DNA of 64,000 bases from Enterococcus cecorum (lineage in GTDB: Bacteria; Bacillota; Bacilli; Lactobacillales; Enterococcaceae): NCBI RefSeq assembly GCF_052119425.1, contig NZ_JBQKFH010000011.1:3155-67154 (forward strand). Reading direction: 5' to 3'. The notes under the pieces are model-generated. The model had not been told where the DNA came from, did not search any database, and was given only the letters and a program-made list of their open reading frames with translations. A program made the position numbers and the translations under genes. Position 1 is the stretch's first letter, and the number at the start of each line of letters is the position of its first letter. Positions 3,065-56,069 of the stretch are shown here, in pieces.

Positions 3065-5107
3065 TTATTCTTCAGTTGTATCATCTGGTGTGATTGTCGT
3101 ATCTTCATCAGATTGCGCTTGTTTTTTCGCATCACGTTCTTCTAGGGCACGTTTTGCTTCTTCATAACTTTGCGCTTTTTCACTTGGAAATTCAGATTCA
3201 TCTTGTGCAGGCATTTTCCCTGTTTCAAACAAGGACTTGATTGCCTTAGCATCTAATGTTTCAAACTCTAATAATTTTTCAGCAATTAATTTATGTTTGT
3301 CACGATGCGTTTCGATGATTTCACGTGCTTTATCATGAGCTTCCATCAAGATACGGCGAACTTCTTGGTCAATTTCATAAGCAATTTGTTCAGAATATGC
3401 TTTAGTTTGACCATAATCACGACCAATAAAGACTTGATGATTACCTTCGTATTGCACAGGTCCAAGCTTGTCACTCATACCATATTCAGTCACCATGCTG
3501 CGCGCTAAGGCTGTGGCTTGTTCAAAGTCATTGGAAGCCCCGGTAGATTGAACACCAAAGATAATTTCTTCAGCTGTACGTCCACCTAATAGACCAACAA
3601 TTTGTTCGAACATATCGTCTTTGGTTAACAACATTTGATCTTCTTTTGGTAAAGCAATCATGTAACCACCGGCGCGTCCACGAGGGATAATCGTTACCTT
3701 GTGTACAACACGCGCACGAGAAAGCACTAAACCAACAATGGTATGTCCGGCTTCGTGATAGGCCACCATTTCGCGCTCACGTTTACTAATGACGCGGTCT
3801 TTCTTAGCAGGACCAGCAATCACGCGGTCTTCAGCTTCATCAATATCAGAAGCATCGATTTTCGTTTTATTACGACGGGCAGCCACTAAAGCCGCTTCGT
3901 TTAAGACGTTTTCCAAATCAGCCCCGGCAAATCCTGGTGTTTGTTGGGCGATTACTTTCAAGTCGACGTCATCAGCCAATGGTTTATTTTTCGCATGGAC
4001 GCGTAAAATAGCTTCACGACCTTTGACATCGGGACGACCGACTAAAATTTGACGGTCAAATCGGCCTGGACGCAATAACGCTGGATCCAAGACGTCTGAA
4101 CGGTTGGTAGCAGCAATGACGATTACGCCTTCATTTCCACTGAAACCATCCATTTCAACAAGCAATTGGTTAAGGGTTTGTTCACGTTCATCATGTCCGC
4201 CACCCATACCAGCACCACGTTGACGACCCACTGCATCAATTTCATCGATAAAGATAATGGCTGGTGAGTTTTTCTTCGCAGTATCAAATAAATCACGTAC
4301 ACGACTTGCTCCGACCCCGACAAACATTTCTACAAAGTCTGAACCAGAGATAGAGTAAAATGGTACGCCTGCTTCACCGGCAACTGCTTTGGCTAATAAA
4401 GTTTTACCGGTTCCTGGAGGTCCTTCTAGTAACACCCCAGCTGGAATACGTGCACCTAATGCTGAGAAGCGACGTGGATCTTTTAAGAATTCCACCACTT
4501 CGACTAATTCTTGTTTTTCTTCTTCAGCCCCAGCTACGTCAGAGAAACGCACGCGGTTGGCTTTTTTATCGGCTTCTTTGGCTTTTGATTTACCAAAGTT
4601 CATCACGCCACGGCCACCACCGCCACCACCGGCTTGTTGACCCATAATCATGTAGAAGAAGAATATCATGATGACAAACGGCACCATGCTAATTAAGAAT
4701 GAAATCCAAACACCGCTGCTAGATTCTTCCTTAATGGTTGTATCTACGTTATGTGTTGCTGCCAAAGATGTAATTTCACTTAATGTGGAATCATTTGGCA
4801 AGACAATCGTTGTAAAACTCGTTGACTTCGTGCTAGTTGAACCTAGAATCGAAAGTCCACTGTTATTACTTACTGTTTGTTCATCTTTGTATTTCCCGCT
4901 AATTTTGTAGACGCCATTTGCCGGTTGTACGGAAAATGACTTGATTTTACCGTCTTCTAATTGCTCAGTAAATTTCGAGTAGTCAATCGATGGTGACTGA
5001 CTGCTACCATTGCCGACAAAGAAGATTAAAATCCCCGCCATTGCAAGAAGCACAAGGATGTAATATAAGGTATTTTTTAACATACCATTATTATTTTTTC
5101 TGTTCAT
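3065..5107 (-). CDS. ftsH: ATP-dependent zinc metalloprotease FtsH
   Basis: AAA+ Walker A GPPGTGKT, second region of homology (SRH) motif, HEAGH zinc site, N-terminal TM segments. Confidence 0.95.
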
Positions 5108-5744: not shown

Positions 5745-7133
5745 CTACTCTATGTATCGATAGACCAGTATGTAACGTATTTTATCAGTTTTAGCATCAA
5801 TACTCAAATAAGAATTCACAAAAGGAAGCAAACTCATGATATTTTTTGACGCATCTAAGACCACAATTGCCTGCATTCTTTGTGCTGTCGGCATCTTTTC
5901 GTCAATAAAATACCGCCGAACCTTTTTTGTTAAACTTGCACTTAACGCGATTTTATCCCCAGGTTTTCTCGGGCGTAACGTTAAAACCGGATTTAATTCT
6001 GCCAAAAATTCATGGCGAAATTCTGAGAAATGTTTGACTTTTTTGGGAATTTTTTCCTCCCCTGCGACAAACAAGCCCACCCAACGATTTTCATCAATCA
6101 TGATTGACTCGCCCACTTTGAGCGTGTAGCAAAAATCTTGACTCGTCACTTTTTCTTTTTGACGCGCAATGATTAGCTTGTCTTGGCTGGCTTGAATTTG
6201 CCACTGGTTTTCTACCGAGAGTACAAAAGTAAGGCGCTTCTCGGCAAGTAGGTCTAACACTTGCGCTACATGGGCTTCTTTTAAGGGAATCTGCGCTTTA
6301 AGTGATAAGCGATGAAAAATCCCCTGTAAAGCAAAATAGCGTTTCGCCGGTGTGAGTTGCAAAAAGGGTTCAAGCAAAATCTGATAAGTATCGTACCTTT
6401 GTCTGACAAGTGTATCATACCATGTATCTTGCATTTCTTCCAAGATTTCCTGTAAAAAGTGCAGCTGCTCACCCAAACGCGCCACTTGGTTTAACGCTTG
6501 CGGATTTTCGCCTTTTAGCACTGGCAGTACCTGATGACGCATACGATTACGCGCATAGGCAAGACTTTGATTGGTTTCATCTTCAAAATAGGTTAATCGC
6601 TTTTCGTGCGCATAATCATAAAGTGTCTTTTTATCCGTAAATAGTAAAGGACGGTACAATGGCAAGTCGGTCTCAGGAAGCACACTTTTGGCTTTCATAC
6701 CAGCTAGATTTTGAAAATTACCGTACTTGACTAACTTCATCAGCATGGTTTCCAGTTGGTCATCGCCATGGTGGGCCGTTAATAGACAAGTAAATCCTTG
6801 TGCTTTCATCACTTGGGCAAAATAACGATATCTTGCTTTTCTTGCCTGCGCTTCAAGATTTGTGGTCGTTTTTTCTTGCCAATTTGCCGTAAAGAAAGGT
6901 AATTGGTGTGTTCGGCAATATTCTTTTATAAAGGCTTGTTCTATCGCTGCACTTTCTCTTAGTTGATGGTTAAAATGCACCACCGCCATTGGGATTTTTG
7001 CAAAACATCGCTGCATCAAATCAAGCAAGACCATCGAATCCACGCCACCAGATACAGCAATTAATATCCGATCACCGGGCTTAAAAAAAGCATTTTTTTG
7101 ACAATGTTGATAGAATTGTTTGGCTAAATCCAT
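5745..7133 (-). CDS. tilS: tRNA(Ile)-lysidine synthetase
   Basis: N-terminal PP-loop SGGVDS, synteny with hpt and ftsH. Confidence 0.85.
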
Positions 7134-7159: not shown

Positions 7160-7366
7160 CATCACTCGGACTTTCCCGACATTCCGGACAACCTTAGCTG
7201 CTTGGAGCTAATCGACCCGGCTCACATCCTTATAACTCGGCGTTCAACAGCTAGACATTGTGAAGTTCGCCCTCCCGCTTGAGAAAATCCCCTTTCATCC
7301 GATTTTCTCAGCGGTAGGTAAGCACATAAATTTCTTCGAGGCTTTCCGAGCTACTTCACGACCTTA
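7160..7366. repeat. Interspersed intergenic repeat, copy A (EFAR-like modular repeat)
   Basis: Shares modules cggactttcccgacRttcYggacaaMc, ctgcttggagct..gctcacatcctta..cggcgttca and ..cttcacgacc with 19226-19398, 24735-24799 and 48833-48902. Confidence 0.6.
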
Positions 7367-17658: not shown

Positions 17659-19182
17659 TTAAAAGATACGCTGTAAGCCGGTTTTATCAAGTTGATAGAT
17701 TTTCTCGCAAACCTGTTCTAGAAAATAACGATCATGCGATACCGTCAGCAAGGCGCCGTTATATTGCTGAAGTTGTTGTGTTAAGACTTGGTTGGAAGTT
17801 GGCGATAAATTACGCGTCGGTTCATCTAGCAATAATACATTAGCTTGGGATAAAAGTAGGCCTAAAATCACCAATTTTGCCCTTTGACCGCCAGATAGAT
17901 AGGCTATAGGGCGCTGCATCTCTTGAACAAAAAACTGCAAACTACCCAGATAAGTCATCACTGTTGCTTGATCTTGCTTGGTTTGGGATAACAAATATGC
18001 GACAGGACTTTGCGTGGTATCCAACGCTTCAAAATAATTTTGTGGCATATACTTCATTTGAATATCGGTTCGCTTTTGTAGCATTTCAGCGATTTTGTGT
18101 AAGAATAGGCTCTTACCAATCCCATTATTGCCCACGATACCTACTTTTTCTTGACCAAAAAACGTAAAATCAATCTGCTCAACCAATATTTTATCCGCGA
18201 CTTTAAGCTGATCATTTTCTAAGTGAATGAGTGGCTTACTAGAAGGCACCGCTTGAACAGTCTGCCATTTTAAACCAATTACCTCTTCTTGTTGCGGCAT
18301 TTCGGTAAATTGAGCGCGCTCTTTTTCAAATCGTTTTTCACGAGATTTTAAACTCGCCATTTTTTTCGCTAACAACCGCCCCTTCGTATCCAACTTAGTG
18401 GTTCGCAATTGATGTTGGACCTTTTGCTTGACCTGCTGGAGTTGAGCATTACGTTTTTTATCTTCGCTTCGTTGCTTAAGAGCGATTTGCAACTGTTTAT
18501 CTGCCGCACTTTTTCTTTGTTCAATATAGGTTTGGTAATCTTCTTTGACAAAATGGACGACGGCACGCTGTTGATGCGCAATTTTTTCCAGATGAATGAT
18601 GCTTGTTGCGGTATTTTTTAATAACACTACATCATGTGAAATATAAAGTATTGCTAAATCACTCGTTCGAATAAAGTGTTCTAACCACTGGATACTTTCA
18701 TAATCTAAATCATTCGAAGGTTCATCCAATAACAATATATCCGGATGATGTAACAGAATTTTCACTAGCTGGATTTTGATTTTTTGCCCACCAGAAAGTG
18801 TACCCATCTTTTGGCTTGAATATAGAAAATCTTGATCCAATTGAAAATCACTCGCCAACTTTGCTAAGTAGGAATAATCAATTTCATTGGCATCTAAATC
18901 ACAAAACAGAAAATCATAGACACTTAATGGTTCATCTTTGCTAGGTAAAAATTGCGGCAAATACCCAATTTGCTGAAAGGTACATTGATAACTGCCTTGC
19001 GCTTCTAAATAATCATTGACTTCAGGGCAGCGACAAAGCCACTTTAGTAACGATGACTTACCCGTTCCTTCTTCTCCGATAATAGCGACCTTATCCCCCG
19101 CATGAACAACGCCCGTTAAGCCATCTACCAAACGAAATTGGTCTTTTTGGTGGATTAAGGTTAAGTTTTGAAACTGCAACAT
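17659..19182 (-). CDS. ABC-F family ATPase (two ABC domains, no TM domain)
   Basis: Two Walker A motifs (GEEGTGKS, GNNGIGKS) and two LSGGQ signatures with a charged linker. Start re-called at MLQFQNL (19182), which has a GGAGG SD. The ORF-track start at 19251 lies inside the EFAR-like repeat. Confidence 0.8.
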   Translation of the reverse strand: MLQFQNLTLIHQKDQFRLVDGLTGVVHAGDKVAIIGEEGTGKSSLLKWLCRCPEVNDYLEAQGSYQCTFQQIGYLPQFLPSKDEPLSVYDFLFCDLDANEIDYSYLAKLASDFQLDQDFLYSSQKMGTLSGGQKIKIQLVKILLHHPDILLLDEPSNDLDYESIQWLEHFIRTSDLAILYISHDVVLLKNTATSIIHLEKIAHQQRAVVHFVKEDYQTYIEQRKSAADKQLQIALKQRSEDKKRNAQLQQVKQKVQHQLRTTKLDTKGRLLAKKMASLKSREKRFEKERAQFTEMPQQEEVIGLKWQTVQAVPSSKPLIHLENDQLKVADKILVEQIDFTFFGQEKVGIVGNNGIGKSLFLHKIAEMLQKRTDIQMKYMPQNYFEALDTTQSPVAYLLSQTKQDQATVMTYLGSLQFFVQEMQRPIAYLSGGQRAKLVILGLLLSQANVLLLDEPTRNLSPTSNQVLTQQLQQYNGALLTVSHDRYFLEQVCEKIYQLDKTGLQRIF

Positions 19183-19225
19183 AAACATCCCTCCTCGTGT
19201 ATTTTCTGAACGAATGCATTTTTTA

Positions 19226-19398
19226 TAACCAAGCTGCTTGGAGCTGATCAACCCAGCTCACATCCTTAATATCGGCGTTCAGCGACTAGCCACTTCGGCG
19301 TATAAGCCAGCTCGTCTGGGAAAGTCTTTACTTCTCGGACTTTCCCGACGTTCTGGACAAACTTATACGCTCGTGGCTGACCAAGTCGCTTCACGACC
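19226..19398. repeat. Interspersed intergenic repeat, copy B (EFAR-like)
   Basis: Same modules as copy A in a different order: gctgcttggagctgatcaacccagctcacatcctta..cggactttcccgacgttctggacaaac..gctcgtggctgaccaagtcgcttcacgacc. Confidence 0.6.
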
Positions 19399-19399
19399 T

Positions 19400-19449: not shown

Positions 19450-19802
19450 GCATGCAAATATATAGGATGATGACTGCAGCTATTAGGCTTTCCTACTACG
19501 ATTGCTAAATTTGATGGTGCAAAACTCTATGTTTAATAACGCATCTATCTTGTTTTTAGCAAAAGTAGCCAATGCACAACAGTCCTTTCTTTTTGGAGCA
19601 GCTAACTTAGCGCTCGTATTTACGACTTCATTATCACTCAATTCTCATCAAAAGTCAATCTTTTTTTAATCTGTGTTTGGCAGCTAGTCATTTTGAAAAT
19701 TCGCCCCAACGATTGTGAAAGTCTTTAAAACTAACTGATTTTCACATCTGTGGGTACGCACGAGTTTTCTCATGTCTGCCCAATCTGCCACACATCCTTT
19801 TT

Positions 19803-20528
19803 TTAGTGATTGCTATTCATCTCAAAGGCTTCTTTCATCGCTTTGGTTCCATGGTCAAAATCAACAATTTCTTTTAATTCACCTTGAATGACGCGTCTGG
19901 TTTCCCCGCTCATTTCACCACAAGTCACCAGTGTTACCAAGCGTTTTCCTGGCACCACATCTAGCAAATCCACCCGATCAGGAGAAACGCGCTGATTGTT
20001 AATCGCTTGGTAGACATAAATTTTAGATAAATCTGTCAAATAAATTTTGTCGCCCACTTTCACATGATCAAGCGGCGTAAATAACAAACTTTCATCAAAC
20101 ATTCGATGGGAAGCAAGGCCATAATTTCCCTCGCCCATCTTCTGTTGCTCACTTGTCGTCCCAGCTCCGTAAAGCAAAACTTCATTGGCTAACCCTTTAA
20201 ATATCGGCAAATTCACTTTTACACTTGGAATGGCAATCCCACCAATCACCGGCAAATCTTTAGCACTTACTTGGTTTTTCATAATTGCTTCTAAACTAAT
20301 CGGCTCGACCTGATCAAAATCAAAAGTTGCCCGAGCTTTTTCATTGTCTTTCACTTGTTTTTTATCTAATTTCGTCACCTGATAGCTGTTGATTTTTTGA
20401 TGGAGTAAATATTTTTGAATCGGCTTATTAAAAACTAAAACCAAGCCCACAACTAATAAAACAACTGTCAGGATATTTAGAATAACAGAGACTAGCTTAC
20501 GTTGTTTCTTTTCCGCCATATCGCACAC
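19803..20528 (-). CDS. srtA: Class A sortase
   Basis: N-terminal TM anchor, catalytic His region, TLVTC active-site motif and conserved Arg. Confidence 0.85.
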   Translation of the reverse strand: MCDMAEKKQRKLVSVILNILTVVLLVVGLVLVFNKPIQKYLLHQKINSYQVTKLDKKQVKDNEKARATFDFDQVEPISLEAIMKNQVSAKDLPVIGGIAIPSVKVNLPIFKGLANEVLLYGAGTTSEQQKMGEGNYGLASHRMFDESLLFTPLDHVKVGDKIYLTDLSKIYVYQAINNQRVSPDRVDLLDVVPGKRLVTLVTCGEMSGETRRVIQGELKEIVDFDHGTKAMKEAFEMNSNH

Positions 20529-24623: not shown

Positions 24624-24734
24624 TTTTGTCCTCTACTTATGTCATTATTATGAAGAAATACTTGACCTACTTCTTTTCTTTTTATAGCTTAACACGAATG
24701 ACAACTTTTGAATAGTCGATATCTTTTGAAGTAG

Positions 24735-24799
24735 AGCGGACTTTCCCGACGTTCCGGACAACCTTATCCGCTCGTGGCTGAGCAAGTCGCTTCACAACC
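24735..24799. repeat. Partial EFAR-like repeat, copy C
   Basis: cggactttcccgacgttccggacaaccttatccgctcgtggctgagcaagtcgcttcacaacc, ending one base before the stop codon of the next gene. Confidence 0.55.
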
Positions 24800-24800
24800 T

Positions 24801-25346
24801 TTATTCATATTTTGCGCGTGGGCCGCCGATGTATTTTGGTCGGCTATAAAGGGCAGTTACATGTGCACCGCCAAGTTCGCGGATACTTGGGCGAATCGGT
24901 ACTTGGACGTGTTTGATATGCATGCCAATTGAGGTATCTCCTAAATCGATTCCTGCTTTGGCCACGAGATGCTCCACTTCGACTGGTTCGGTAAAATAGC
25001 GAAAAGCAGCCACACTACAAGCCCCACCTGCATGTAACTGAGGGACAACGGCAACTTCTTCTAGATTGTAACGTTCTTGCGCGGCTCTTTCCACAACCAG
25101 GGCACGATTTAAATGCTCACACCCTTGGACTGCTAGAAAAATTTGCTGCTCTGACAAAATCGCAAGCAAAGTTTCAACGACCCATTCTCCAATCTCTTGA
25201 CTCGAATTTTTGCCAATCACGCCACCAGCAATTTCACTAGTGGAACAACCCAAGACAAAAATATCCCCGGCTTTTAGCTGTGCTTTAGCCAAAACCTCTC
25301 GCGTAATCGTTGTTAACTCACGGATTAATCGTTCTTTTTCAATCAT
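24801..25346 (-). CDS. Conserved hypothetical protein (TIGR01440/DUF436-like, UPF0340)
   Basis: 181 aa; [24 protein letters not shown] resembles the YwlG-type family. Confidence 0.45.
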
Positions 25347-29263: not shown

Positions 29264-29376
29264 CATTGAACAAATACCCGTTGTAAAAATTCGTCCTCCC
29301 ATCTATATGTTTCTCAACGGAAGATAAACTTCTGAATTTTTTCCTGTCTGATTACACAGTTTAAGACCTCATAATG

Positions 29377-48769: not shown

Positions 48770-48807
48770 AAAAAAATCGTTGCACCCGAAAATGCAACGA
48801 TTTTTTA
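48770..48807. terminator. Terminator downstream of the cyd operon
   Basis: A7-ATCGTTGCA-cccgaaaa-TGCAACGAT-T6. Confidence 0.6.
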
Positions 48808-48832: not shown

Positions 48833-48902
48833 ACCATCCGATTTTCTCAGCGGTAGGTAAACACACGAATTTCTTCATGTCTAAACGAGCTGGTTCACAA
48901 CC
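48833..48902. repeat. Partial EFAR-like repeat, copy D, overlapping the 3' end of the cydC/cydD-type ABC gene
   Basis: catccgattttctcagcggtaggtaaacacacgaatttcttcatgtctaaacgagctggttcacaacc is about 80% identical to the tail of copy A (7306-7366). Confidence 0.55.
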
Positions 48903-50644
48903 TTTCCTTCATCTATGGCTTTGAGTTGTTGGAAGCGTGCGTTGTTTTGGGCTAAGGCAGCGGGGGTTCCAGACATTTCTAGGCGGCCATCTTCAATGAA
49001 AATGACGCGGTCCATGATTTCGATTCCTTGTAGATGGTGGGTAATCCAAATCACGGTCTTATCTTGCAGCTGACTAAAGAACGTATCGATTAAGGCTTGC
49101 TCAGTTAATGGATCAAGGCCGACAGTTGGTTCATCGAGTAAAACAATCGGGGTATCTTGTAATAAAATACGTGCTAAAGCCATTCGATGACGCTCTCCAC
49201 CTGAAAAACGCAAGCCAGCTTCATCCACCATGGTATGTAATCCTTCTGGCAATTGTTCGACTAATTTTTTCAAACCAACTCGTTCTAGCACTTGCCAAAC
49301 TTCTTCTTCACTCTTATTCGTGTTTGCCATACGGACATTATTTAAAATCGTCGTATGGAATAAATAAGGTGCTTGCTGAATGACGCTGATGTAATGACTC
49401 ATCGCATCACCAAACTGATAAGTCGGCACACCACCAAGCGTTAACAGTCCATTTTGCGGTTTCAAATCTCCGCGAATCAAACTAGCCAACGTACTCTTCC
49501 CTGAGCCACTCTTACCTAAAATCGCAATTTTTTCACCTGGTTCAATCGTTAAGTCCAAGCGATCCAAAACAAGATGATGATCATAGCTAAAACTCAAATC
49601 CTCCACTTGAATACGTGTATCGGTCACTTCTATGGTTTTAGGTGCTTCATCAGGTGTTTCATCTAAGGCATTTAAACGATTGATGGAATCTTTATAGACA
49701 TTGCTTTCTTGCATCGCTTCAGGTAACACCACAAAAGCATCCACCACTGGAAAAGCACTTAATACAAAAGCCGCAATCCAGTTCGCTGCGCCCCCATGAT
49801 TTCCGACAAAACGCTGCGAAGTCCAAACGATTAAACCAATCACGACAAAACTATAAATCAATTGGAATAAGACCTGCACTCGTCTGTTAAAGAGGCGTTT
49901 TTGATCTTGCACTTGATAGAGTTCTTGCTCGACTTGTAAATGCGTATCGACATACTCACTTCCACGTTGACTGAAAATCCAATCCGCAACACCTAGCACA
50001 TTATCGGTCAAATCCGTATATAATTCTGTTTTAAGCGTTTTTTCTCTTTCTTGGCGCGCCCCATTGACAACCACGGACCAAACAGGCAAAACAATAACCA
50101 AGATAAAGAGCAACAAGGCTAAATACAAGGCAAAAAAGATAGAGAACATACCGACTGCGATGACGATAAAGGCATATAAAATCAAGGCAATAATCAATGG
50201 GAAAATCGTCCGCAAATAAAGGTTTTGAATATATTGAATGTCTTCTGCTAATAAGCCCAAAATATCTCCCATACGATACTTTTGCTTAAAGACCATCGCA
50301 TCTTTTTCTAAAGTATGGTACAGTTTGCGACGAAGTTTAGAGGTCATCTTCAATACCCAGTTATGACTCGTTAAACGTTCGATATAGCGAAAGACCGGAC
50401 GACTCACCCCAAAGGCCCGCGTTAAGACAATCGGCACATAAACCAGTAAAATATTTTCCGGTAATGAAGCCGACTTACTAATTAAGTATCCTGAGTTGAA
50501 CATTAAAGCGCCGGCACTAAAGAACGTACAAAATCCTAAGAAAATTGCCAACATCAAAGGTGCTTTATAACGTTGAAGGTATGGTTTAACCCAGGTATCC
50601 TTTTCAAAAGCTTTTAGGATAGGAATTTTAGACATGACGTTCAC
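48881..50644 (-). CDS. cydD: CydC/CydD-type ABC transporter (permease fused to ATPase), second gene of the pair
   Basis: 6 TM segments plus an ABC domain (GKSGSGKST, LSGGERHR); position downstream of cydAB. Which gene is cydC and which is cydD depends on naming convention; I follow Bacillus gene order. Confidence 0.75.
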   Translation of the reverse strand: MNVMSKIPILKAFEKDTWVKPYLQRYKAPLMLAIFLGFCTFFSAGALMFNSGYLISKSASLPENILLVYVPIVLTRAFGVSRPVFRYIERLTSHNWVLKMTSKLRRKLYHTLEKDAMVFKQKYRMGDILGLLAEDIQYIQNLYLRTIFPLIIALILYAFIVIAVGMFSIFFALYLALLLFILVIVLPVWSVVVNGARQEREKTLKTELYTDLTDNVLGVADWIFSQRGSEYVDTHLQVEQELYQVQDQKRLFNRRVQVLFQLIYSFVVIGLIVWTSQRFVGNHGGAANWIAAFVLSAFPVVDAFVVLPEAMQESNVYKDSINRLNALDETPDEAPKTIEVTDTRIQVEDLSFSYDHHLVLDRLDLTIEPGEKIAILGKSGSGKSTLASLIRGDLKPQNGLLTLGGVPTYQFGDAMSHYISVIQQAPYLFHTTILNNVRMANTNKSEEEVWQVLERVGLKKLVEQLPEGLHTMVDEAGLRFSGGERHRMALARILLQDTPIVLLDEPTVGLDPLTEQALIDTFFSQLQDKTVIWITHHLQGIEIMDRVIFIEDGRLEMSGTPAALAQNNARFQQLKAIDEGKVVNQLV

Positions 50645-52349
50645 CTCGCATTTTCTTCGTTAGTTCAAAGAAGGCGCCCCGTTTTTCGGTTAATTCGTTA
50701 AAGGTTCCCGCCTCGACTAATTTTCCTTCTTCTAAGACTAAAATATAATCCATTTGGTGCATCCAGTGCATACGGTGAGTCGCAAAAAAGACCAAACGAT
50801 TTTCCATTAGCGGTAACATCTGATTCTTTAATTCGACCTCGGTTTCAATATCCAAATGGGCAGTTGGTTCATCTAAAATCAACACTTTGCGATTCTTATC
50901 TAAAAAGGCCCGTGCTAAGGCAATTCGCTGTGCTTGACCCCCACTTAGACTCCGTGCCCCTTCACCGATTAAGGTATCCAAGCCATCTGGTAATTGGGCG
51001 AACAATTCGCTAAGCCCAGCAACTTCAATGGCTTGCATAATCGCCGCATCATCAGCTTCTGGTGTATAAAAGGCAATATTTTCTCGTAAACTTGCCCGGA
51101 AAACATAAGGATTTTGCGGAATATAAATCAACTGCTTTTGCCAATCTTCTTGTTTAAAGCTAGTCGTTTCTTCGCCATTAAAGAGAATCGAGCCTTGCTT
51201 AGGTGTTAAAAAGCCACTCATGACATTCATCAGCGTGGACTTCCCTGAACCACTCATCCCAATGACGCCAATTTTTTGGTAGCCACTTACTTGTAAATTC
51301 ACTGGTTGTAAGCCTGAGCCTTGACCATAATCAAAGGAAAGCTCACTTAAATCAAGCGTTGAGGATTCATTCCAAGGAGCAATGGCGATTTGTTCCACTT
51401 CATTTTCGGGTAATTCTAAAATTTCACGAATCGCTGTCATCGCATTTTTCCCATCTAAAGTCGCATGATAATCACTTGAAAAATCACGAACCGGCAAGAA
51501 ATATTCTGGTGCTAAAATAAGAACCGTCAATGCTGGGAATAATAAGATTTCCGCATTTAACAAACGCAAACCTAAAAAGACCGCCACAATCGCTACTGAT
51601 AATGTCGTAAAGAAATCTAAAGCAAAGGTGGACAAAATCGCAATCCTTAACGTAGACATGGTCGCTTTCCGGAATTGTTCACTGGTTTGATAGATGCCTT
51701 TTTCATAAGATTTACTCATGCCAAATAGTTTCAACGTATCAATCCCACGCAACGAATCGATGAAATGGTTCGATAAAATTTGGAAGGAACGATATTGACG
51801 GTCGGCCTTGGCTTGAGCAGCATATCCTAATACAATCATAAAAATGATAATTAATGGAAATACTAAAAGCAAAATCACGCCACTGACCCAGTCATAGTAA
51901 AAGACCACGACTAAAATCACCCAAGGCACAATCATCATATTCATCATCTTGGCTAAAATCAGATGTATATAATTTTCGACTTGACTGATACCATCTACGG
52001 TCATAGTCGTTACATTTCCCGTACCATGTGCTTGAACCACGGTAGGACCAAGTTTAAAGATTTTTTGCAATAATTGGGTACGTAGCTTTTTGGCTTGTTC
52101 TTGCGCATAATTATCTAAAAGTCGTTCACGCAAGTAAGTAATCACATGTCGAGCCATGAAAAATAGGAAAAAACCAAGCACGTAAAGTCCGACTTCTTTA
52201 AGTGTGTGACCTTCCCATAAATGAGTAATCGCCGCACTTAACATCCATGCTTGGCCAATGATAAAGATTGCTTGCAAGAAAGCAAATCCTGCAAGCAACC
52301 CAAACATTTGTCTAATTTTTTCAAGGCGCATAATTGCCTTATCTATCAT
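50628..52349 (-). CDS. cydC: CydC/CydD-type ABC transporter (permease fused to ATPase), first gene of the pair
   Basis: 6 TM segments plus an ABC domain (GMSGSGKST, LSGGQAQR); overlaps its neighbours by 17 nt and 4 nt. Confidence 0.75.
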   Translation of the reverse strand: MIDKAIMRLEKIRQMFGLLAGFAFLQAIFIIGQAWMLSAAITHLWEGHTLKEVGLYVLGFFLFFMARHVITYLRERLLDNYAQEQAKKLRTQLLQKIFKLGPTVVQAHGTGNVTTMTVDGISQVENYIHLILAKMMNMMIVPWVILVVVFYYDWVSGVILLLVFPLIIIFMIVLGYAAQAKADRQYRSFQILSNHFIDSLRGIDTLKLFGMSKSYEKGIYQTSEQFRKATMSTLRIAILSTFALDFFTTLSVAIVAVFLGLRLLNAEILLFPALTVLILAPEYFLPVRDFSSDYHATLDGKNAMTAIREILELPENEVEQIAIAPWNESSTLDLSELSFDYGQGSGLQPVNLQVSGYQKIGVIGMSGSGKSTLMNVMSGFLTPKQGSILFNGEETTSFKQEDWQKQLIYIPQNPYVFRASLRENIAFYTPEADDAAIMQAIEVAGLSELFAQLPDGLDTLIGEGARSLSGGQAQRIALARAFLDKNRKVLILDEPTAHLDIETEVELKNQMLPLMENRLVFFATHRMHWMHQMDYILVLEEGKLVEAGTFNELTEKRGAFFELTKKMRGERHV

Positions 52350-53362
52350 TCTTCATACCCCGCTACATCAGCAGTCACACGTTTTCTGAAGATATAGTAT
52401 GTCCAAGCAAAGTAAGCTAAGACAAATGGTAATAAAGTAATTGCGACAATACTCATAATCTTCAAGGTGTAAGGTGTTGAAGAAGCATTCTTAATCAATA
52501 AGTCAAATTTAGAACTGATTGAACTAATCATCACACGTGGGAATAAACCAGTAAATAGTAAAGCCACTAGTGAGACTAAAGTTAAACCACTGGCTAAAAA
52601 GGCTGCTAATTCTTTTCCTTTTAAGACTGAAATATTTGCAAAAACCGTTAATAACACGATTAACACCACTAAAGCTAAAGTTGTTGCAAAGTGTAGTTTA
52701 AAGAAGTCTGTTTGTAAGTATAATAGAATCGCAAATACGACTAAACCTGCGTAAAGTACGTAATATAAAACTTTCGCATAATCGCGCGCACGATGACGGA
52801 TTGGGCCATCTGTTTTTAGCGCGATATAGTTTAAGCCGTGTAAGTAGCAAAGTAAAGTTAAAGCAACGCCACCCACGATAGAGAAAATATTAAAGTAATC
52901 TGTAAAGTGAGCAGTCATATTTCCATTGGCATCTAAAGGCATTCCTTGAATCATGCTGATAAAGATAATCCCAAAGAAGAATGGCACGATAAAACTACCA
53001 ATCGTTAATGTCCAGTTCCAGAAATTCTTTTTACTTGGTTCGACTTTGTGACGGAATTCAAATGAAACCCCACGGATGATTAAACCAAATAAAATCGTGA
53101 ACAATAGTAGGTAATAACCACTGAACAATGAGGCATACCAGAAAGGAAATGACGCAAACATCGCTCCACCAGCAGTTAATAACCAAACTTCATTTCCATC
53201 CCAAACTGGGCCGATTGTCGCAACTAATTGATCTCTTTCTTTTTCATTTTTGGCTAATGTATGCATAGACATGCCCACACCATAGTCAAAACCTTCTAAA
53301 AAGAAATAACCTGAGAATAATACACCAATTAAGAAGAACCATAAAAGTTGTAAATTACTCAT
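52346..53362 (-). CDS. cydB: Cytochrome bd ubiquinol oxidase subunit II
   Basis: Start re-called at MSNLQL (53362), with a GGAGGTG SD inside the end of cydA (ATGAGTAA overlap); polytopic membrane protein. Confidence 0.85.
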   Translation of the reverse strand: MSNLQLLWFFLIGVLFSGYFFLEGFDYGVGMSMHTLAKNEKERDQLVATIGPVWDGNEVWLLTAGGAMFASFPFWYASLFSGYYLLLFTILFGLIIRGVSFEFRHKVEPSKKNFWNWTLTIGSFIVPFFFGIIFISMIQGMPLDANGNMTAHFTDYFNIFSIVGGVALTLLCYLHGLNYIALKTDGPIRHRARDYAKVLYYVLYAGLVVFAILLYLQTDFFKLHFATTLALVVLIVLLTVFANISVLKGKELAAFLASGLTLVSLVALLFTGLFPRVMISSISSKFDLLIKNASSTPYTLKIMSIVAITLLPFVLAYFAWTYYIFRKRVTADVAGYEE

Positions 53363-54797
53363 GAACGGCACCTCCTTCAAATGGATCGACCGGACTTTCT
53401 ACTGCGACTTCTTCTAATTCAGGGCCTTTGCGAACTTCTTTGACCACTAAAGTCACCATCACAGCAGCTAATCCTGTAAATAGTAAGAAGTAAATCGTAT
53501 TAGAAATTAATAATGAAGTAGTAGATACATTTGGTGACACACTATCCATGATGGTAAATACACCATAAACTGTCCATGGATAACGACCTAATTCAGTAAT
53601 TAACCAACCAGTTGTATTAGCTAAGAATGGCGCAAAAGTCGTTAAAGCCATGACCCAAATGACCCAACGTTTCTTAAATAGACTTGGATCTGGTTTTCTT
53701 GTCATCACTAGTCCAACGATTGAAACTAAAAGCATCAATACGCCAAAGCCAGCCATCACACGGAAGCTCCAGAACAAAGCATTTACTGGTGGGTAGAAGT
53801 TCAAATCTTCACCCGTTGATTTTTTGTAAGCTGCTACTTGATCTTTGAAATCTTTTTGGAACTGTTCGTTTAATTCGTTCATCCCTTTGATTTCTTTATT
53901 TGGGTTATTGAAAGCTAAAATCCCTAACATGTAAGGCACTTTCACCCCAAAGACTTCTTGTTTGTTTAATTCATCTGCCCAGCCGACGATGGTCCAAGCA
54001 TTGGTCTTTTCGTAAGCTCCTTCAGTGGCAGCTAATTTCATTGGTTGTGTTTCTACTAAGTCTTTCATTTGTAAGTCCCCAGCAAGTAACACGCCTAATG
54101 AACCGACTAAAGCAACGGTTAACCCTACACGAATAGATTTGCGGTAGAAGTCTTTGAATTTGTCTGTAAGATTTTTGTTGCGTAATAATTGGAAAGCCGT
54201 TAATCCAGCAACAATAATCCCACCCATTGTAATCGCCGCAGTAATGACGTGTGAGTATTCATACCAAGTTTGTGGGTTTTTAATTAAAGCGAAGAAATCA
54301 GTCATTTCCGCGCGACCATTACGTAGTGCATAGCCTGTTGGGTGTTGCATGAACGCATTGGCAATTAAAATCCACAAGGCAGATAACATCGAACCTAATG
54401 TTACCAACCAAATAAAGACTACGTGAAGTTTAGGACTTACTCGCTTCCAAGTAAACATCCATAGTCCTAAGAAAGTTGATTCCATAAAGAAAGCTAATAG
54501 GGCTTCAACAGCTAGCGGTGCACCGAAAATATCACCAACGAATCGAGAATAATCTGACCAGTTCATCCCGAATTGGAATTCTTGAATAATACCAGTAACG
54601 ACACCGACCGCAAAGCTTAGAAGAAAAATATTTCCCCAGAACTTAGCCATCTTTTTGTACATTTCGTCCTTTTTAACAACATACAGTGTTTCCATCACAG
54701 AAATTACTAAAGCGGTACCGATAGAAAAGGGTACGAAGAAATAGTGAAACACTGTTGTCATCGCAAATTGGAAACGTGCTAATGACACAATATCCAT
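53355..54797 (-). CDS. cydA: Cytochrome bd ubiquinol oxidase subunit I
   Basis: CydA conserved N-terminus (FHYFFVPFSIG), Q-loop region; GGAGG SD. Confidence 0.9.
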   Translation of the reverse strand: MDIVSLARFQFAMTTVFHYFFVPFSIGTALVISVMETLYVVKKDEMYKKMAKFWGNIFLLSFAVGVVTGIIQEFQFGMNWSDYSRFVGDIFGAPLAVEALLAFFMESTFLGLWMFTWKRVSPKLHVVFIWLVTLGSMLSALWILIANAFMQHPTGYALRNGRAEMTDFFALIKNPQTWYEYSHVITAAITMGGIIVAGLTAFQLLRNKNLTDKFKDFYRKSIRVGLTVALVGSLGVLLAGDLQMKDLVETQPMKLAATEGAYEKTNAWTIVGWADELNKQEVFGVKVPYMLGILAFNNPNKEIKGMNELNEQFQKDFKDQVAAYKKSTGEDLNFYPPVNALFWSFRVMAGFGVLMLLVSIVGLVMTRKPDPSLFKKRWVIWVMALTTFAPFLANTTGWLITELGRYPWTVYGVFTIMDSVSPNVSTTSLLISNTIYFLLFTGLAAVMVTLVVKEVRKGPELEEVAVESPVDPFEGGAVHE

Positions 54798-55377: not shown

Positions 55378-55490
55378 TGCTATAATGTAGATGAAAGCAA
55401 TCGTCCGTTTTTGACGGTCGCATAGTTATTTAGGCAAAATAGCCGTTCTAACCTCGCGAAAAAATTAAGTTAGAGGAACGGCTATTTTTC
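55378..55490 (+). ncRNA. Candidate small RNA 1: extended -10 promoter TGcTATAAT (55378-55386), a ~100-nt transcript and an intrinsic terminator
   Basis: Conserved core tccgtttttgacggtcgcata plus the GC-rich hairpin aatagccgttctaac...gttagaggaacggctattttt. Paralogous to 55585-55724. Confidence 0.45.
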
Positions 55491-55493
55491 TTG

Positions 55494-55541
55494 CCTTATT
55501 TTCCATATTTACACAAAAACCAGAGAATAAGTCCCTGGTTT
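55494..55541. repeat. 48-bp direct repeat copy 1 (hairpin AAAACCAG-N11-CTGGTTTT); also found at 56022-56069
   Basis: cttattttccatatttacacaaaaaccagagaataagtccctggttt versus ctattatttcccatatttacacaaaaaccagagagcaagtccctggttt. Confidence 0.6.
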
Positions 55542-55584
55542 TATAGTTGTAAAATTAAAAAAAATCGACAAATAAAAAAAAGTA

Positions 55585-55724
55585 TGCTAGAATACAAATG
55601 AAAAGAGGGACTGCTGGTACAATCCCCCTTATCAGAGATAGTCCGTTTTTGACGGTCGCATATTTATACTTGGCAAAATAGCCGTTCTAACGTAGCGAAA
55701 AAGTTAGAGGACGGCTATTTTTTC
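55585..55724 (+). ncRNA. Candidate small RNA 2 (paralog of sRNA 1): extended -10 TGcTAGAAT (55585-55593), a ~125-nt transcript and an intrinsic terminator
   Basis: Same core gtccgtttttgacggtcgcata, and the hairpin aatagccgttctaac..gttagaggacggctattttttc. Its 3' end converges on the peptide gene at 55757-55834. Confidence 0.45.
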
Positions 55725-55756
55725 TTGCCATTGTTGCCTAGGATTAAACCTATGAT

Positions 55757-55834
55757 TTAGATCACTAATGATAGCGTACCAAAAATCACCGCAACTACGA
55801 TTGAAATAATCGCAATAATGTCGCTGGCTGACAT
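55757..55834 (-). CDS. Unannotated 25-aa hydrophobic peptide (MSASDIIAIISIVVAVIFGTLSLVI), candidate type I toxin
   Basis: AAAGGAG SD 10 nt upstream of the ATG; a single predicted TM helix; convergent with sRNA 2 across its terminator. Putative minus-strand promoter TGaTAGAAT (plus coordinates 55926-55934). Confidence 0.4.
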   Translation of the reverse strand: MSASDIIAIISIVVAVIFGTLSLVI

Positions 55835-56021
55835 GAAAGCAAATCTCCTTTCTGATAGATTTTGCATAAGCACCACCTACTTCCAGTTGAATTTGCAACC
55901 GCCATAACTGCATATCTCAAAACTTATTCTATCACAAATTAATTTTAAATAAGAACAGAAATACCCCAATCATTTTCTCTTTTTTCGCTATATAATTTCA
56001 CTTAATTTTGAGAATTTTATC

Positions 56022-56069
56022 TATTATTTCCCATATTTACACAAAAACCAGAGAGCAAGTCCCTGGTTT
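56022..56069. repeat. 48-bp direct repeat copy 2, which doubles as the LysR-gene terminator
   Basis: See copy 1. It ends exactly at the LysR stop codon. Confidence 0.6.

What the first reader, a model, noticed from the sequence alone, without database searches (positions are those of the whole stretch)
48833..48902. EFAR-like repeat fragment supplies the last codons and stop codon of the cydC/cydD-type ABC transporter gene
The 3' end of the ORF at 48881-50644 (...EGKVVNQLV*) runs into a 70-bp segment that is about 80% identical to the tail of repeat copy A (…ttcttcRNGNctNNNcgagctRSttcacRacc). The final 6-7 codons and the TAG stop therefore derive from the repeat. The cyd operon terminator follows 25 bp later. 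The repeat apparently inserted into, or recombined with, the gene terminus and re-defined the protein C-terminus. Three other copies in this window (7160-7366, 19226-19398, 24735-24799) also abut gene ends. One reaches the stop of the DUF436 gene at 24801. One overlaps the extended reading frame upstream of the ABC-F gene.
Basis: partly seen in the sequence, partly recalled or inferred. Interest (0 to 1): 0.5.

Follow-up and report, generated by a model that had tools for sequence, protein, structure and literature searches.

The report
Hairpin repeat supplies cydC's last codons
In Enterococcus cecorum, half of a 130-base hairpin repeat sits directly on the end of the cydC transporter gene and encodes its last six or seven amino acids and its stop codon; this kind of event is already documented for other bacterial repeat families and is probably harmless to the protein.

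Summary
Window 48834-48903 (minus strand) matches the first 70 positions of a ~135-nt repeat unit. It is 83% identical to the copy at 7296-7365, and a profile built without any cydC locus gives E = 2e-19. The unit begins at the second base of codon K578 of cydC, so it encodes (K)VVNQLV and the TAG stop.

Orthologous CydC proteins are conserved up to ...AIDxG (G577) and then carry short unrelated tails. The two closest repeat-free relatives end AIDEGR* and AIDDGRIN*, with a terminator right after the stop.

E. cecorum strains carry at least three alleles at this junction. Each places a different repeat unit against GGA-A and gives a different tail: KVVNQLV/D*, KVVQRLG* or KVVG*. A 7-nt copy of cydC coding sequence (GAAGGAA) reappears between units.

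The "EFAR-like" label fails. There is no detectable similarity to the E. faecalis Efa-1/EFAR sequences, the fold differs, and the host is E. cecorum. The repeat is a clade-restricted family that I did not find described. Its units are long hairpins arranged head to tail, and they usually start at or within a few bases of a gene's stop codon.

The phenomenon is known: pneumococcal BOX elements encode the stop codon of 36 genes. Interest is modest.

The parts
48834..48903 (-). Half of a 'gamma'-type repeat unit: the 5' arm of the hairpin plus half the apex loop. It begins AGGTTGTGAACCAGCTCG and ends ...GAGAAAATCGGATG.
   Evidence: 83% over 70 nt to 7296-7365. (profile positions 1-70, E 2.1e-19). 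(the apex loop of the consensus hairpin is GGATGAAAGGA, and the fragment stops inside it).
48884..48904 (-). Codons K578-V584 of CydC (AAG GTT GTG AAC CAG CTC GTT). All but the first base of AAG are repeat-derived.
   Evidence: The tail is absent from all orthologues outside the E. cecorum clade.
48881..48883 (-). TAG stop codon of cydC, located inside the repeat unit at profile positions about 21-23.
48881..50635 (-). cydC, the thiol reductant ABC exporter subunit. It is 584 aa from the ATG at 50635; the mechanical ORF starts at GTG 50644. It is the last gene of cydA (53355-54797), cydB (52346-53380), cydD (50628-52349), cydC.
   Evidence: Pfam. (99-100% identity to annotated E. cecorum CydC). 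(E. coli CydC structures, E 1e-67; the alignment ends at query residue 572).
48771..48806 (.). Intrinsic-terminator hairpin flanked by an A run and a T run, so it can act in both directions. It ends the cyd transcript about 27 nt after the repeat fragment.
   Evidence: scan. (minimum-free-energy fold of the minus-strand RNA: a 16-bp stem followed by a U run).
7237..7364 (-). Full-length gamma unit, the reference copy for the cydC fragment.
   Evidence: E 1.3e-41..
7164..7230 (-). Half unit (5' arm of a delta/alpha-type unit, cut at the apex) following the gamma unit. It lies just upstream of the start of the PP-loop gene at 5745-7133.
   Evidence: E 1e-17 and 4e-15..
19270..19399 (-). Full-length alpha unit.
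   Evidence: E 1.3e-42..
19229..19266 (-). First ~38 nt of a delta unit. It overlaps only the mechanically extended ORF of the ABC-F gene, not its likely start (RBS GAGGAGGG plus ATG near 19185).
19669..19798 (-). Diverged gamma-like full unit starting 5 nt after the TAA of the sortase gene (19803-20528).
   Evidence: E 3.9e-19..
24733..24800 (-). Alpha half unit (5' arm, cut at the apex). Its first base directly follows the TAA (24801-24803) of the DUF436 gene.
   Evidence: E 4e-19..

Best explanation
The window comes from Enterococcus cecorum. The genomes of this clade carry a family of non-coding repeat units, mostly 130-135 nt with one longer type. Every unit starts AGG(T/A)(T/C)GTGA, ends ...GAACAC(CGTC/AGATT), and folds into one long imperfect hairpin. 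Units sit head to tail in arrays of one to four. They are co-oriented with the upstream gene and usually begin at or within a few bases of that gene's stop codon.

At cydC, a unit became joined to the gene directly after the last conserved codon (GGA, G577). The ancestral final codon(s) and stop were lost, and translation now runs 20 nt into the unit until it meets an in-frame TAG. In this window only the 5' arm of that unit survives, so no unit hairpin can form here. The operon's own terminator follows.

The junction is a hot spot. Other strains have one to three extra units between GGA-A and the old half unit. Each extra unit brings its own in-frame tail and stop, and each is followed by a copy of cydC's own GAAGGAA or AGGAA.

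Shown: the repeat origin of the tail and stop, the position of the junction, the allelic series, and the family anatomy.

Inferred: that the units arrived by insertion with duplication of a few target bases, that the half unit arose by deletion from the hairpin apex, and that the new tail is functionally neutral.
For: Repeat identity: (E 2.1e-19 with a profile that excludes cydC loci).

Species and gene.

The conserved CydC sequence ends at AIDxG. Orthologue tails are short, unrelated and never KVV... (for 34 diverse representatives; for 120 Enterococcus/Lactobacillales sequences). The closest repeat-free loci read GAT GAA GGA CGA TAA followed by a terminator (L108) and GAT GAT GGT CGT ATA AAT TGA followed by a terminator (L109). 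E. cecorum shares GAT GAA GGA and diverges at the next base. No units occur in L108 or L109.

Alleles: 120 E. cecorum CydC proteins are 99% identical in the body but end NQLV, NQLD, NRLV, RQLA, QRLG or G after KVV. Three of 7 tail sites vary, against 57 of 577 body sites (p = 0.03). The DNA shows a different unit abutting GGA-A in each allele class, and L012 carries a 611-nt array. The GAAGGAA of cydC is duplicated at the inner junction in L001/L069, and AGGAA/GAAGGAA in L012.

Family-wide features:
- The flank before the first unit reappears (>=5 nt) before an inner unit in 17 of 34 arrays, against 5.8% between arrays.
- The upstream gene is co-oriented in 48 of 54 cases.
- 25 of 68 repeat regions contain or touch the stop of an ORF of at least 100 aa.
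- The hairpin has 40 pairs, 10 of them with compensatory changes. All four unit types fold this way.
- 126 of 139 profile hits keep the 5' end, and truncations cluster at the apex.

Distribution: multi-copy only in E. cecorum-clade genomes.

Precedent: BOX elements encode the stop codon of 36 pneumococcal genes (PMC3049150). Repeats extending gene 3' ends are reviewed in PMC3184786.
Against: No 'empty' cydC site exists within the E. cecorum clade: all 120 proteins already carry KVV. The ancestral E. cecorum terminus is therefore inferred from species that are only 69-72% identical.

The order of events among alleles is not resolved. Unequal or homologous recombination between units could produce the same alleles without any new insertion.

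The junction duplications vary in length (4-12 nt), which is unlike a classical fixed-length target-site duplication.

Many harvested loci are orthologous across five genomes, so the counts are not independent events.

Neutrality of the tail is inferred, not measured. No expression data were available.
Confidence: 0.9

Rival explanations
1. The allelic diversity at the cydC end arises only from homologous or unequal recombination and deletion between resident units, such as between the 15-nt GAAGGAAAGGTYGTG junction repeats or between the two gamma 5' arms of an L012-like array. No unit is mobile today. The window allele would be a deletion derivative of a long array.
For: L012 carries a full gamma unit next to cydC and a truncated gamma 5' arm at the far end of the array. 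Both share the same rare variant AACCAGCTCGATTAG. One crossover between them yields exactly the window/L004 allele. Units in arrays are direct repeats with shared 5' ends.
Against: The L001/L069 allele (alpha unit, then GAAGGAA, then an intact gamma half) cannot be derived from the L012 order by a single crossover. The duplicated GAAGGAA is cydC coding sequence, not unit sequence. Locus-specific junction duplications recur at many other arrays, which fits insertion better.
Confidence: 0.35
2. The fragment is a member of the E. faecalis EFAR family.
For: General resemblance only. It is an enterococcal, modular, size-variable, hairpin-forming repeat found near gene ends.
Against: There is no sequence similarity to the 65 published Efa-1 sequences. 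The fold is a single long hairpin rather than a double hairpin (PMC2267715). The exact-pattern scan of one genome per species found multi-copy hits only in the E. cecorum clade.
Confidence: 0.03
3. The repeat-encoded tail is functional and maintained or diversified by selection, for example as a C-terminal signal on CydC or as programmed variation.
For: All sampled E. cecorum alleles keep K-V-V after G577 and stop within 1-4 further codons.
Against: KVV is simply the translation of the conserved unit terminus AGGTYGTG in this frame. The residues after it differ between alleles and are polymorphic within an allele. Orthologue tails are short and unconserved. The structurally characterised E. 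coli CydC aligns only to residue 572.
Confidence: 0.05
4. The similarity is a chance match, or the repeat family originated from the cydC 3' end (direction gene to repeat).
For: None beyond the bare fact that the two sequences overlap.
Against: E = 2e-19 with an independent profile. The same 5' terminus heads four unit types, with 139 profile hits across the harvested loci, which are partly orthologous between genomes. CydC orthologues outside the clade lack it.
Confidence: 0.01

Closest known systems
BOX elements of Streptococcus pneumoniae and BOX-type elements of S. suis (Croucher et al. 2011, PMC3049150)
   Same: Both are Lactobacillales repeats built from modules in variable number. Both are strongly base-paired and lie mostly downstream of genes. 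In 36 pneumococcal genes the BOX element encodes the stop codon without evident truncation of the conserved protein, which is the situation at cydC. The first eight bases of the E. cecorum units (AGGTTGTG) equal the outer end of boxC read on the complementary strand (TTGAGGTTGTGGAT...).
   Different: A BOX profile finds nothing in the E. cecorum loci (best E = 1), so apart from the octamer there is no detectable homology. The units here are ~130-nt self-contained hairpins repeated head to tail, not an A-Bn-C composite. Orientation with the upstream gene is much stronger (48 of 54) than the ~61% reported for BOX.
EFAR / Efa-1 repeats of Enterococcus faecalis (Venditti et al. 2007, recalled from memory; Efa-1 in PMC2267715)
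   Same: Same genus. Both are modular and size-variable, form hairpins, are intergenic, and tend to lie near gene ends.
   Different: No sequence similarity. Efa-1 is a 163-167-nt double hairpin, whereas these are single long hairpins of ~130 nt. The host clade differs.
Generic bacterial MITEs and other repeats fused to ORF ends (ERIC, Correia/NEMIS, MIRU, Rickettsia RPE; Delihas 2011 PMC3184786; PMC10969869)
   Same: [quoted passage not shown] MIRU ends overlap adjacent genes.
   Different: No parent IS or transposase is known here. The junction duplications are variable in length (4-12 nt). Units pile up head to tail at the same junction, and truncated copies keep the 5' end.

Membership tests
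EFAR / Efa-1 (E. faecalis) | Sequence similarity to the 163-170-nt Efa-1/EFAR consensus | tested here: not met
   Nine Efa-1 sequences and a profile of the full-length ones were run against the window and all E. cecorum loci. nhmmer gave a best E of 2.7. The best blastn hit was E = 0.008, and the best-scoring hits listed lie outside the repeat regions. That Efa-1 equals EFAR is my inference from species, size and double-hairpin fold.
EFAR / Efa-1 (E. faecalis) | Fold made of two adjacent independent stem-loops | tested here: not met
   The consensus fold of 19 gamma units is one long hairpin of 40 pairs. Alpha, delta and epsilon units fold likewise. The Efa-1 double hairpin is described in PMC2267715.
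EFAR / Efa-1 (E. faecalis) | Variable assemblies of sequence modules; location at gene 3' ends or terminator hairpins | tested here: inconclusive
   The modular arrays and the gene-end location are seen. Targeting of terminator stem-loops is recalled from Venditti 2007 and could not be tested, because no empty site exists within the clade. Repeat-free relatives do have a terminator 1-3 nt after the cydC stop.
BOX-type elements (Streptococcus) | Homology to boxA/boxB/boxC modules | tested here: not met
   A BOX profile against all loci gave a best E of 1. Only the terminal octamer AGGTTGTG is shared.
BOX-type elements (Streptococcus) | Composite of modules in variable number; elements encode stop codons of upstream genes | tested here: met
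   for E. cecorum. for BOX (36 genes).
MITE (generic) | Small, non-coding, with terminal inverted repeats that pair into a long stem-loop | tested here: met
   Unit ends pair (alignment columns 2-16 with 116-129), and 10 pairs show compensatory changes. Units are 130-135 nt, one type about 170-190 nt.
MITE (generic) | Target-site duplication of fixed length | tested here: inconclusive
   Flank duplications are enriched (17 of 34 arrays at >=5 nt, against 5.8% background), but their lengths vary from 4 to 12 nt. At cydC they are 5 and 7 nt.
MITE (generic) | A parent IS or transposase with matching terminal repeats in the same host | not tested
No transposase search was made.
REP/BIME (RAYT-associated) | 20-40-nt palindromes tagged by a GTAG or CGTC tetranucleotide at one end | tested here: not met
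   Units are ~130 nt and begin AGGTYGTG. The definition is from PMC3733652.
CydC (thiol reductant ABC exporter subunit) | ABC transmembrane domain plus ABC ATPase domain, encoded after cydA, cydB and cydD, and similar to characterised CydC | tested here: met
   Pfam and operon order. 99-100% identity to annotated E. cecorum CydC. E. coli CydC structures at E 1e-67.

The most novel reading that the evidence does not exclude
The ~130-nt hairpin units are an undescribed and possibly still active mobile element family of the E. cecorum clade. They would insert strand-specifically at the boundary between a stop codon (or a gene's last codons) and the 5' end of a resident unit, duplicate a few flank bases, and so build head-to-tail arrays that repeatedly rewrite gene termini. 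The shared terminal octamer with pneumococcal boxC could mean that they and BOX elements are moved by a related, still unidentified enzyme.
Probability: 0.25. Interest if true: 0.55.

Novelty: new member of a known kind. Interest (0 to 1): 0.3.

Why it matters
This is a clean natural example of a small repeat overwriting the last codons and stop of a conserved housekeeping gene. It is unusual in that one species carries three different repeat-encoded tails on the same protein.

It has three practical consequences:
- The annotated C-terminus of E. cecorum CydC is repeat sequence, and tail differences between strains should not be read as functional variation.
- These repeats break short-read assemblies; the L003 contig ends inside one.
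- The cydC-PTR2 spacer (about 70 to 610 nt of repeats) is a ready-made strain-typing marker for a poultry pathogen.

Biologically it adds an enterococcal family to the BOX, EFAR and MITE catalogue. It does not open a new principle.

Tried and rejected
- Rfam: no family matched at gathering score over the whole window. Only chance-level hits appeared at E <= 1 around two repeat loci, and none lay on a unit.
- PLSDB plasmids with copy A in distant mode: no match.
- Literature on EFAR: the primary paper is not in the library. I used the Efa-1 sequence file of PMC2267715 instead. No paper in the library describes an E. cecorum repeat family.
- EFAR homology: rejected.
- BOX homology: rejected at profile level.
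- Folding the cydC fragment with its flank shows mainly the terminator. Single-sequence folds of copy A on either strand are not much better than shuffles (z about -1.8). The alignment-based fold was needed to see the hairpin.
- The first protein search returned only E. cecorum sequences. More distant orthologues came from the representative search and a second search seeded with P0122.
- The excess of G.U over A.C in predicted pairs (81 versus 17) agrees with a sense-strand structure. It is biased by predicting on that strand, so I do not rely on it.
- I considered using GC skew to separate replication bias from transcription bias in unit orientation. I dropped it because the two are confounded in 8-kb loci.

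Full report
**What is at the coordinates**

The minus strand of the window carries cydA (53355-54797), cydB (52346-53380), cydD (50628-52349) and cydC (48881-50644 as a mechanical ORF; 584 aa from the ATG at 50635). The CydC protein is 99-100% identical to proteins annotated as thiol reductant ABC exporter subunit CydC of Enterococcus cecorum. It also matches the solved E. coli CydC chains at E 1e-67. The window is therefore E. cecorum, not E. faecalis.

The gene ends ...GCC ATA GAT GAA GGA AAG GTT GTG AAC CAG CTC GTT TAG, with the TAG at 48881-48883. A terminator hairpin follows at 48771-48806.

**Is the repeat match real?**

Yes. The repeat finder pairs 7296-7365 with 48835-48904, 70 nt ungapped at 83% identity. 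I then collected full-length units of this type from other E. cecorum loci, left out every cydC locus, and built a profile. It hits window 48903->48834 (minus strand) over profile positions 1-70 with E = 2.1e-19.

Profile position 1 falls on the second base of codon K578. So 23 nt of coding sequence, including the stop, are repeat sequence.

**What the repeat is**

An exact-pattern scan of one genome per species found multi-copy matches only in E. cecorum DSM 20682, E. cecorum ESM13AIC1, an E. cecorum MAG, Ca. Enterococcus stercoripullorum, and a 'Bacillota' MAG whose flanks equal E. cecorum loci. All other hits are singletons in unrelated phyla.

Harvesting those loci gave 68 repeat regions of 45-611 nt. 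Written on one strand, they resolve into units that all begin AGG(T/A)(T/C)GTGA and end ...GAACAC(CGTC or AGATT) plus a few A/T-rich bases. The units are arranged head to tail, one to four per array, often followed by a partial unit.

I distinguish four unit types, which I call alpha, gamma, delta and epsilon. An alignment of 19 gamma units folds into a single long hairpin of 40 pairs. Ten pairs show compensatory double changes, and the apex loop reads GGATGAAAGGA. The other three types also fold as long hairpins.

The cydC fragment stops at ...GAAAATCGGATG, inside that apex loop. It is therefore the 5' arm of a gamma unit, not the 'tail' of a larger element.

Family-wide features:
- 126 of 139 profile hits keep the unit's 5' end, and truncated copies tend to end near the apex.
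- Units are co-oriented with the upstream gene in 48 of 54 cases.
- In 25 of 68 regions, the stop of an ORF of at least 100 aa lies in or at the edge of the repeat, mostly by 1-4 nt. The base(s) before a unit are typically (A/T)TA or TAA. An example is the DUF436 gene ...GAATAA|AGGTTGTG at 24801.
- cydC is the deepest overlap with a long, identifiable gene (23-24 nt). Three deeper overlaps (133-181 nt) involve only 100-118-aa ORFs that lie largely inside the repeat.

These counts include orthologous loci from five genomes, so they overstate the number of independent events.

**Does the repeat really replace the native C-terminus?**

Thirty-four diverse CydC representatives align up to a conserved ...L-x-A-(I/L/F)-D-x-G and then carry 0-13 unrelated residues. 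In 120 Enterococcus and Lactobacillales CydC proteins the motif AID(R/Q/K/E)G is followed by 1-4 residues, at most 12, and none has KVV.

The two closest relatives, at 72% and 69% identity, end AIDDGRIN* and AIDEGR*. Their DNA reads GAT GAT GGT CGT ATA AAT TGA and GAT GAA GGA CGA TAA. In both, a terminator hairpin begins one to three bases after the stop, and neither locus contains a repeat unit. E. cecorum shares GAT GAA GGA and diverges at the very next base, where the unit begins.

The solved E. coli CydC aligns only to residue 572. So the junction lies immediately after the last conserved residue, and the repeat-encoded residues are an appendage beyond the folded domain.

**The junction is polymorphic within the species**

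Among 120 E. cecorum CydC sequences the body is 99% identical. After IDEGKVV, however, the protein ends NQLV (84 sequences), NQLD (13), NRLV (5), RQLA (1), QRLG (13) or G (4). Within the window-type allele, 3 of 7 tail positions vary against 57 of 577 in the body.

The DNA explains the classes:
- Window/L004 type: cydC...GAAGGAA | gamma half | terminator.
- L001/L002/L069 type, which includes the type strain DSM 20682: cydC...GAAGGAA | alpha unit (tail KVVQRLG*) ...GAAGGAA | the same gamma half, now non-coding.
- L003 type: cydC...GAAGGAA | an epsilon-like unit (tail KVVG*). The contig breaks inside the repeat.
- L012 (Ca. E. stercoripullorum): a 611-nt array of full gamma, alpha, and an epsilon-like unit with a further part, ending in the truncated gamma half before the terminator.

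K-V-V is simply the translation of the conserved unit start (A)AG GTY GTG in this frame.

The GAAGGAA (or AGGAA) before each inner unit is cydC's own E576-G577 coding sequence. At other loci the corresponding spacer is locus-specific, and it repeats the flank before the first unit in 17 of 34 arrays (>=5 nt), against 5.8% for between-array comparisons. That pattern is what unit insertion with duplication of a few target bases would leave.

Unequal recombination could also generate part of the series. One crossover between the two gamma 5' arms of an L012-like array yields exactly the window allele. I cannot polarise the series without a strain tree.

**How it most likely works**

Shown:
- The last 20 coding nucleotides and the stop codon are repeat sequence.
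- The conserved protein is intact up to G577.
- The tail changes with whichever unit is adjacent.

Inferred:
- A gamma unit was joined to cydC just after GGA, removing the original last codon(s) and stop. In relatives these sit right against the terminator stem.
- The 3' arm of that unit was later lost by a deletion starting at the hairpin apex. This is a recurrent truncation point in the family.
- Further units entered at the same boundary in some lineages.
- The tail is selectively neutral.
- The units in longer alleles add long hairpins to the cyd 3' UTR, with unknown effect on mRNA stability.

**Comparison with known families**

This is a 163-167-nt double-hairpin family with 65 copies, which I take to be EFAR. 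There is no significant similarity, and the fold differs.

The nearest analogue in behaviour is the pneumococcal BOX element. It is modular and base-paired and lies downstream of genes. In 36 genes it encodes the stop codon without evident truncation of the conserved protein (PMC3049150). The first octamer of the E. cecorum units, AGGTTGTG, equals the outer end of boxC on the complementary strand. A BOX profile finds nothing else, so I treat this as a lead, not as membership.

Repeats fused to or extending ORF ends are also reviewed for ERIC, MIRU, RPE and others (PMC3184786; PMC10969869). Rfam has no matching family. I found no paper in the library describing an E. cecorum repeat family.

**Verdict**

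The family name is wrong, and the phenomenon is a known one. What is new is modest. First, the repeat family is apparently undescribed and restricted to this clade. Second, one conserved gene carries three alternative repeat-encoded C-termini within a species. Interest 0.3; new member of a known kind.

Noticed in passing
It is a diverged gamma-like full unit starting 5 nt after the TAA of the sortase gene (19803-20528); nhmmer E = 3.9e-19.
   Followed up: partly
window 29278-29351 (minus strand): A decayed gamma-like remnant (AGACAGGAAAAAATTCAGAAG...GGGAGGACGAATTTTTACAA) with an internal deletion; nhmmer E = 9e-5. It suggests old copies erode in place.
   Followed up: no
window 55400-55740 and 56024-56069: Two ~238-nt direct repeats, plus a third partial copy, lie upstream of cydA. 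Each carries a strong hairpin (GGCAAAATAGCCGTTCTAAC...GTTAGAGGAACGGCTATTTT). The minus strand at about 55762-55839 encodes a 25-aa hydrophobic peptide, MSASDIIAIISIVVAVIFGTLSLVI, behind a good RBS. This looks like a type I toxin-antitoxin (Fst-like) module.
   Followed up: no
unit 5' ends, e.g. window 48896-48903, 24793-24800, 7357-7364: The unit's first octamer AGGTTGTG is identical to the outer end of pneumococcal boxC read on the complementary strand (TTGAGGTTGTGGAT...). A BOX profile finds no further similarity (best E = 1), so this may be coincidence or a shared recognition site.
   Followed up: partly
E. cecorum loci L006-L105 and the window: Repeat units almost always keep their 5' end (126 of 139 profile hits). 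Truncated copies are cut on the 3' side, often at the hairpin apex. Examples in the window are 24733-24800, 7164-7230 and 48834-48903.
   Followed up: partly
arrays in L013, L014, L046, L081, L008, window 7160-7366 and others: The 5-12 nt before the first unit of an array reappear before an inner unit in 17 of 34 arrays, against 5.8% between arrays. Examples are AGATTGGGCATA in L013 and TTGCATTA in L014. This looks like a target or junction duplication of variable length.
   Followed up: partly
L003 (Logan SRR27143243 contig, end at 4868): The short-read contig ends inside the repeat array downstream of cydC. These units evidently break assemblies, so array length and order in draft genomes should be treated with care.
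   Followed up: no
window 17659-19251 (minus strand): The mechanical ORF of the ABC-F gene starts at a TTG inside a repeat unit. The likely true start is the ATG near 19185, behind the RBS GAGGAGGG. The overlap with the repeat is an artefact of ORF extension, not a gene fusion.
   Followed up: partly
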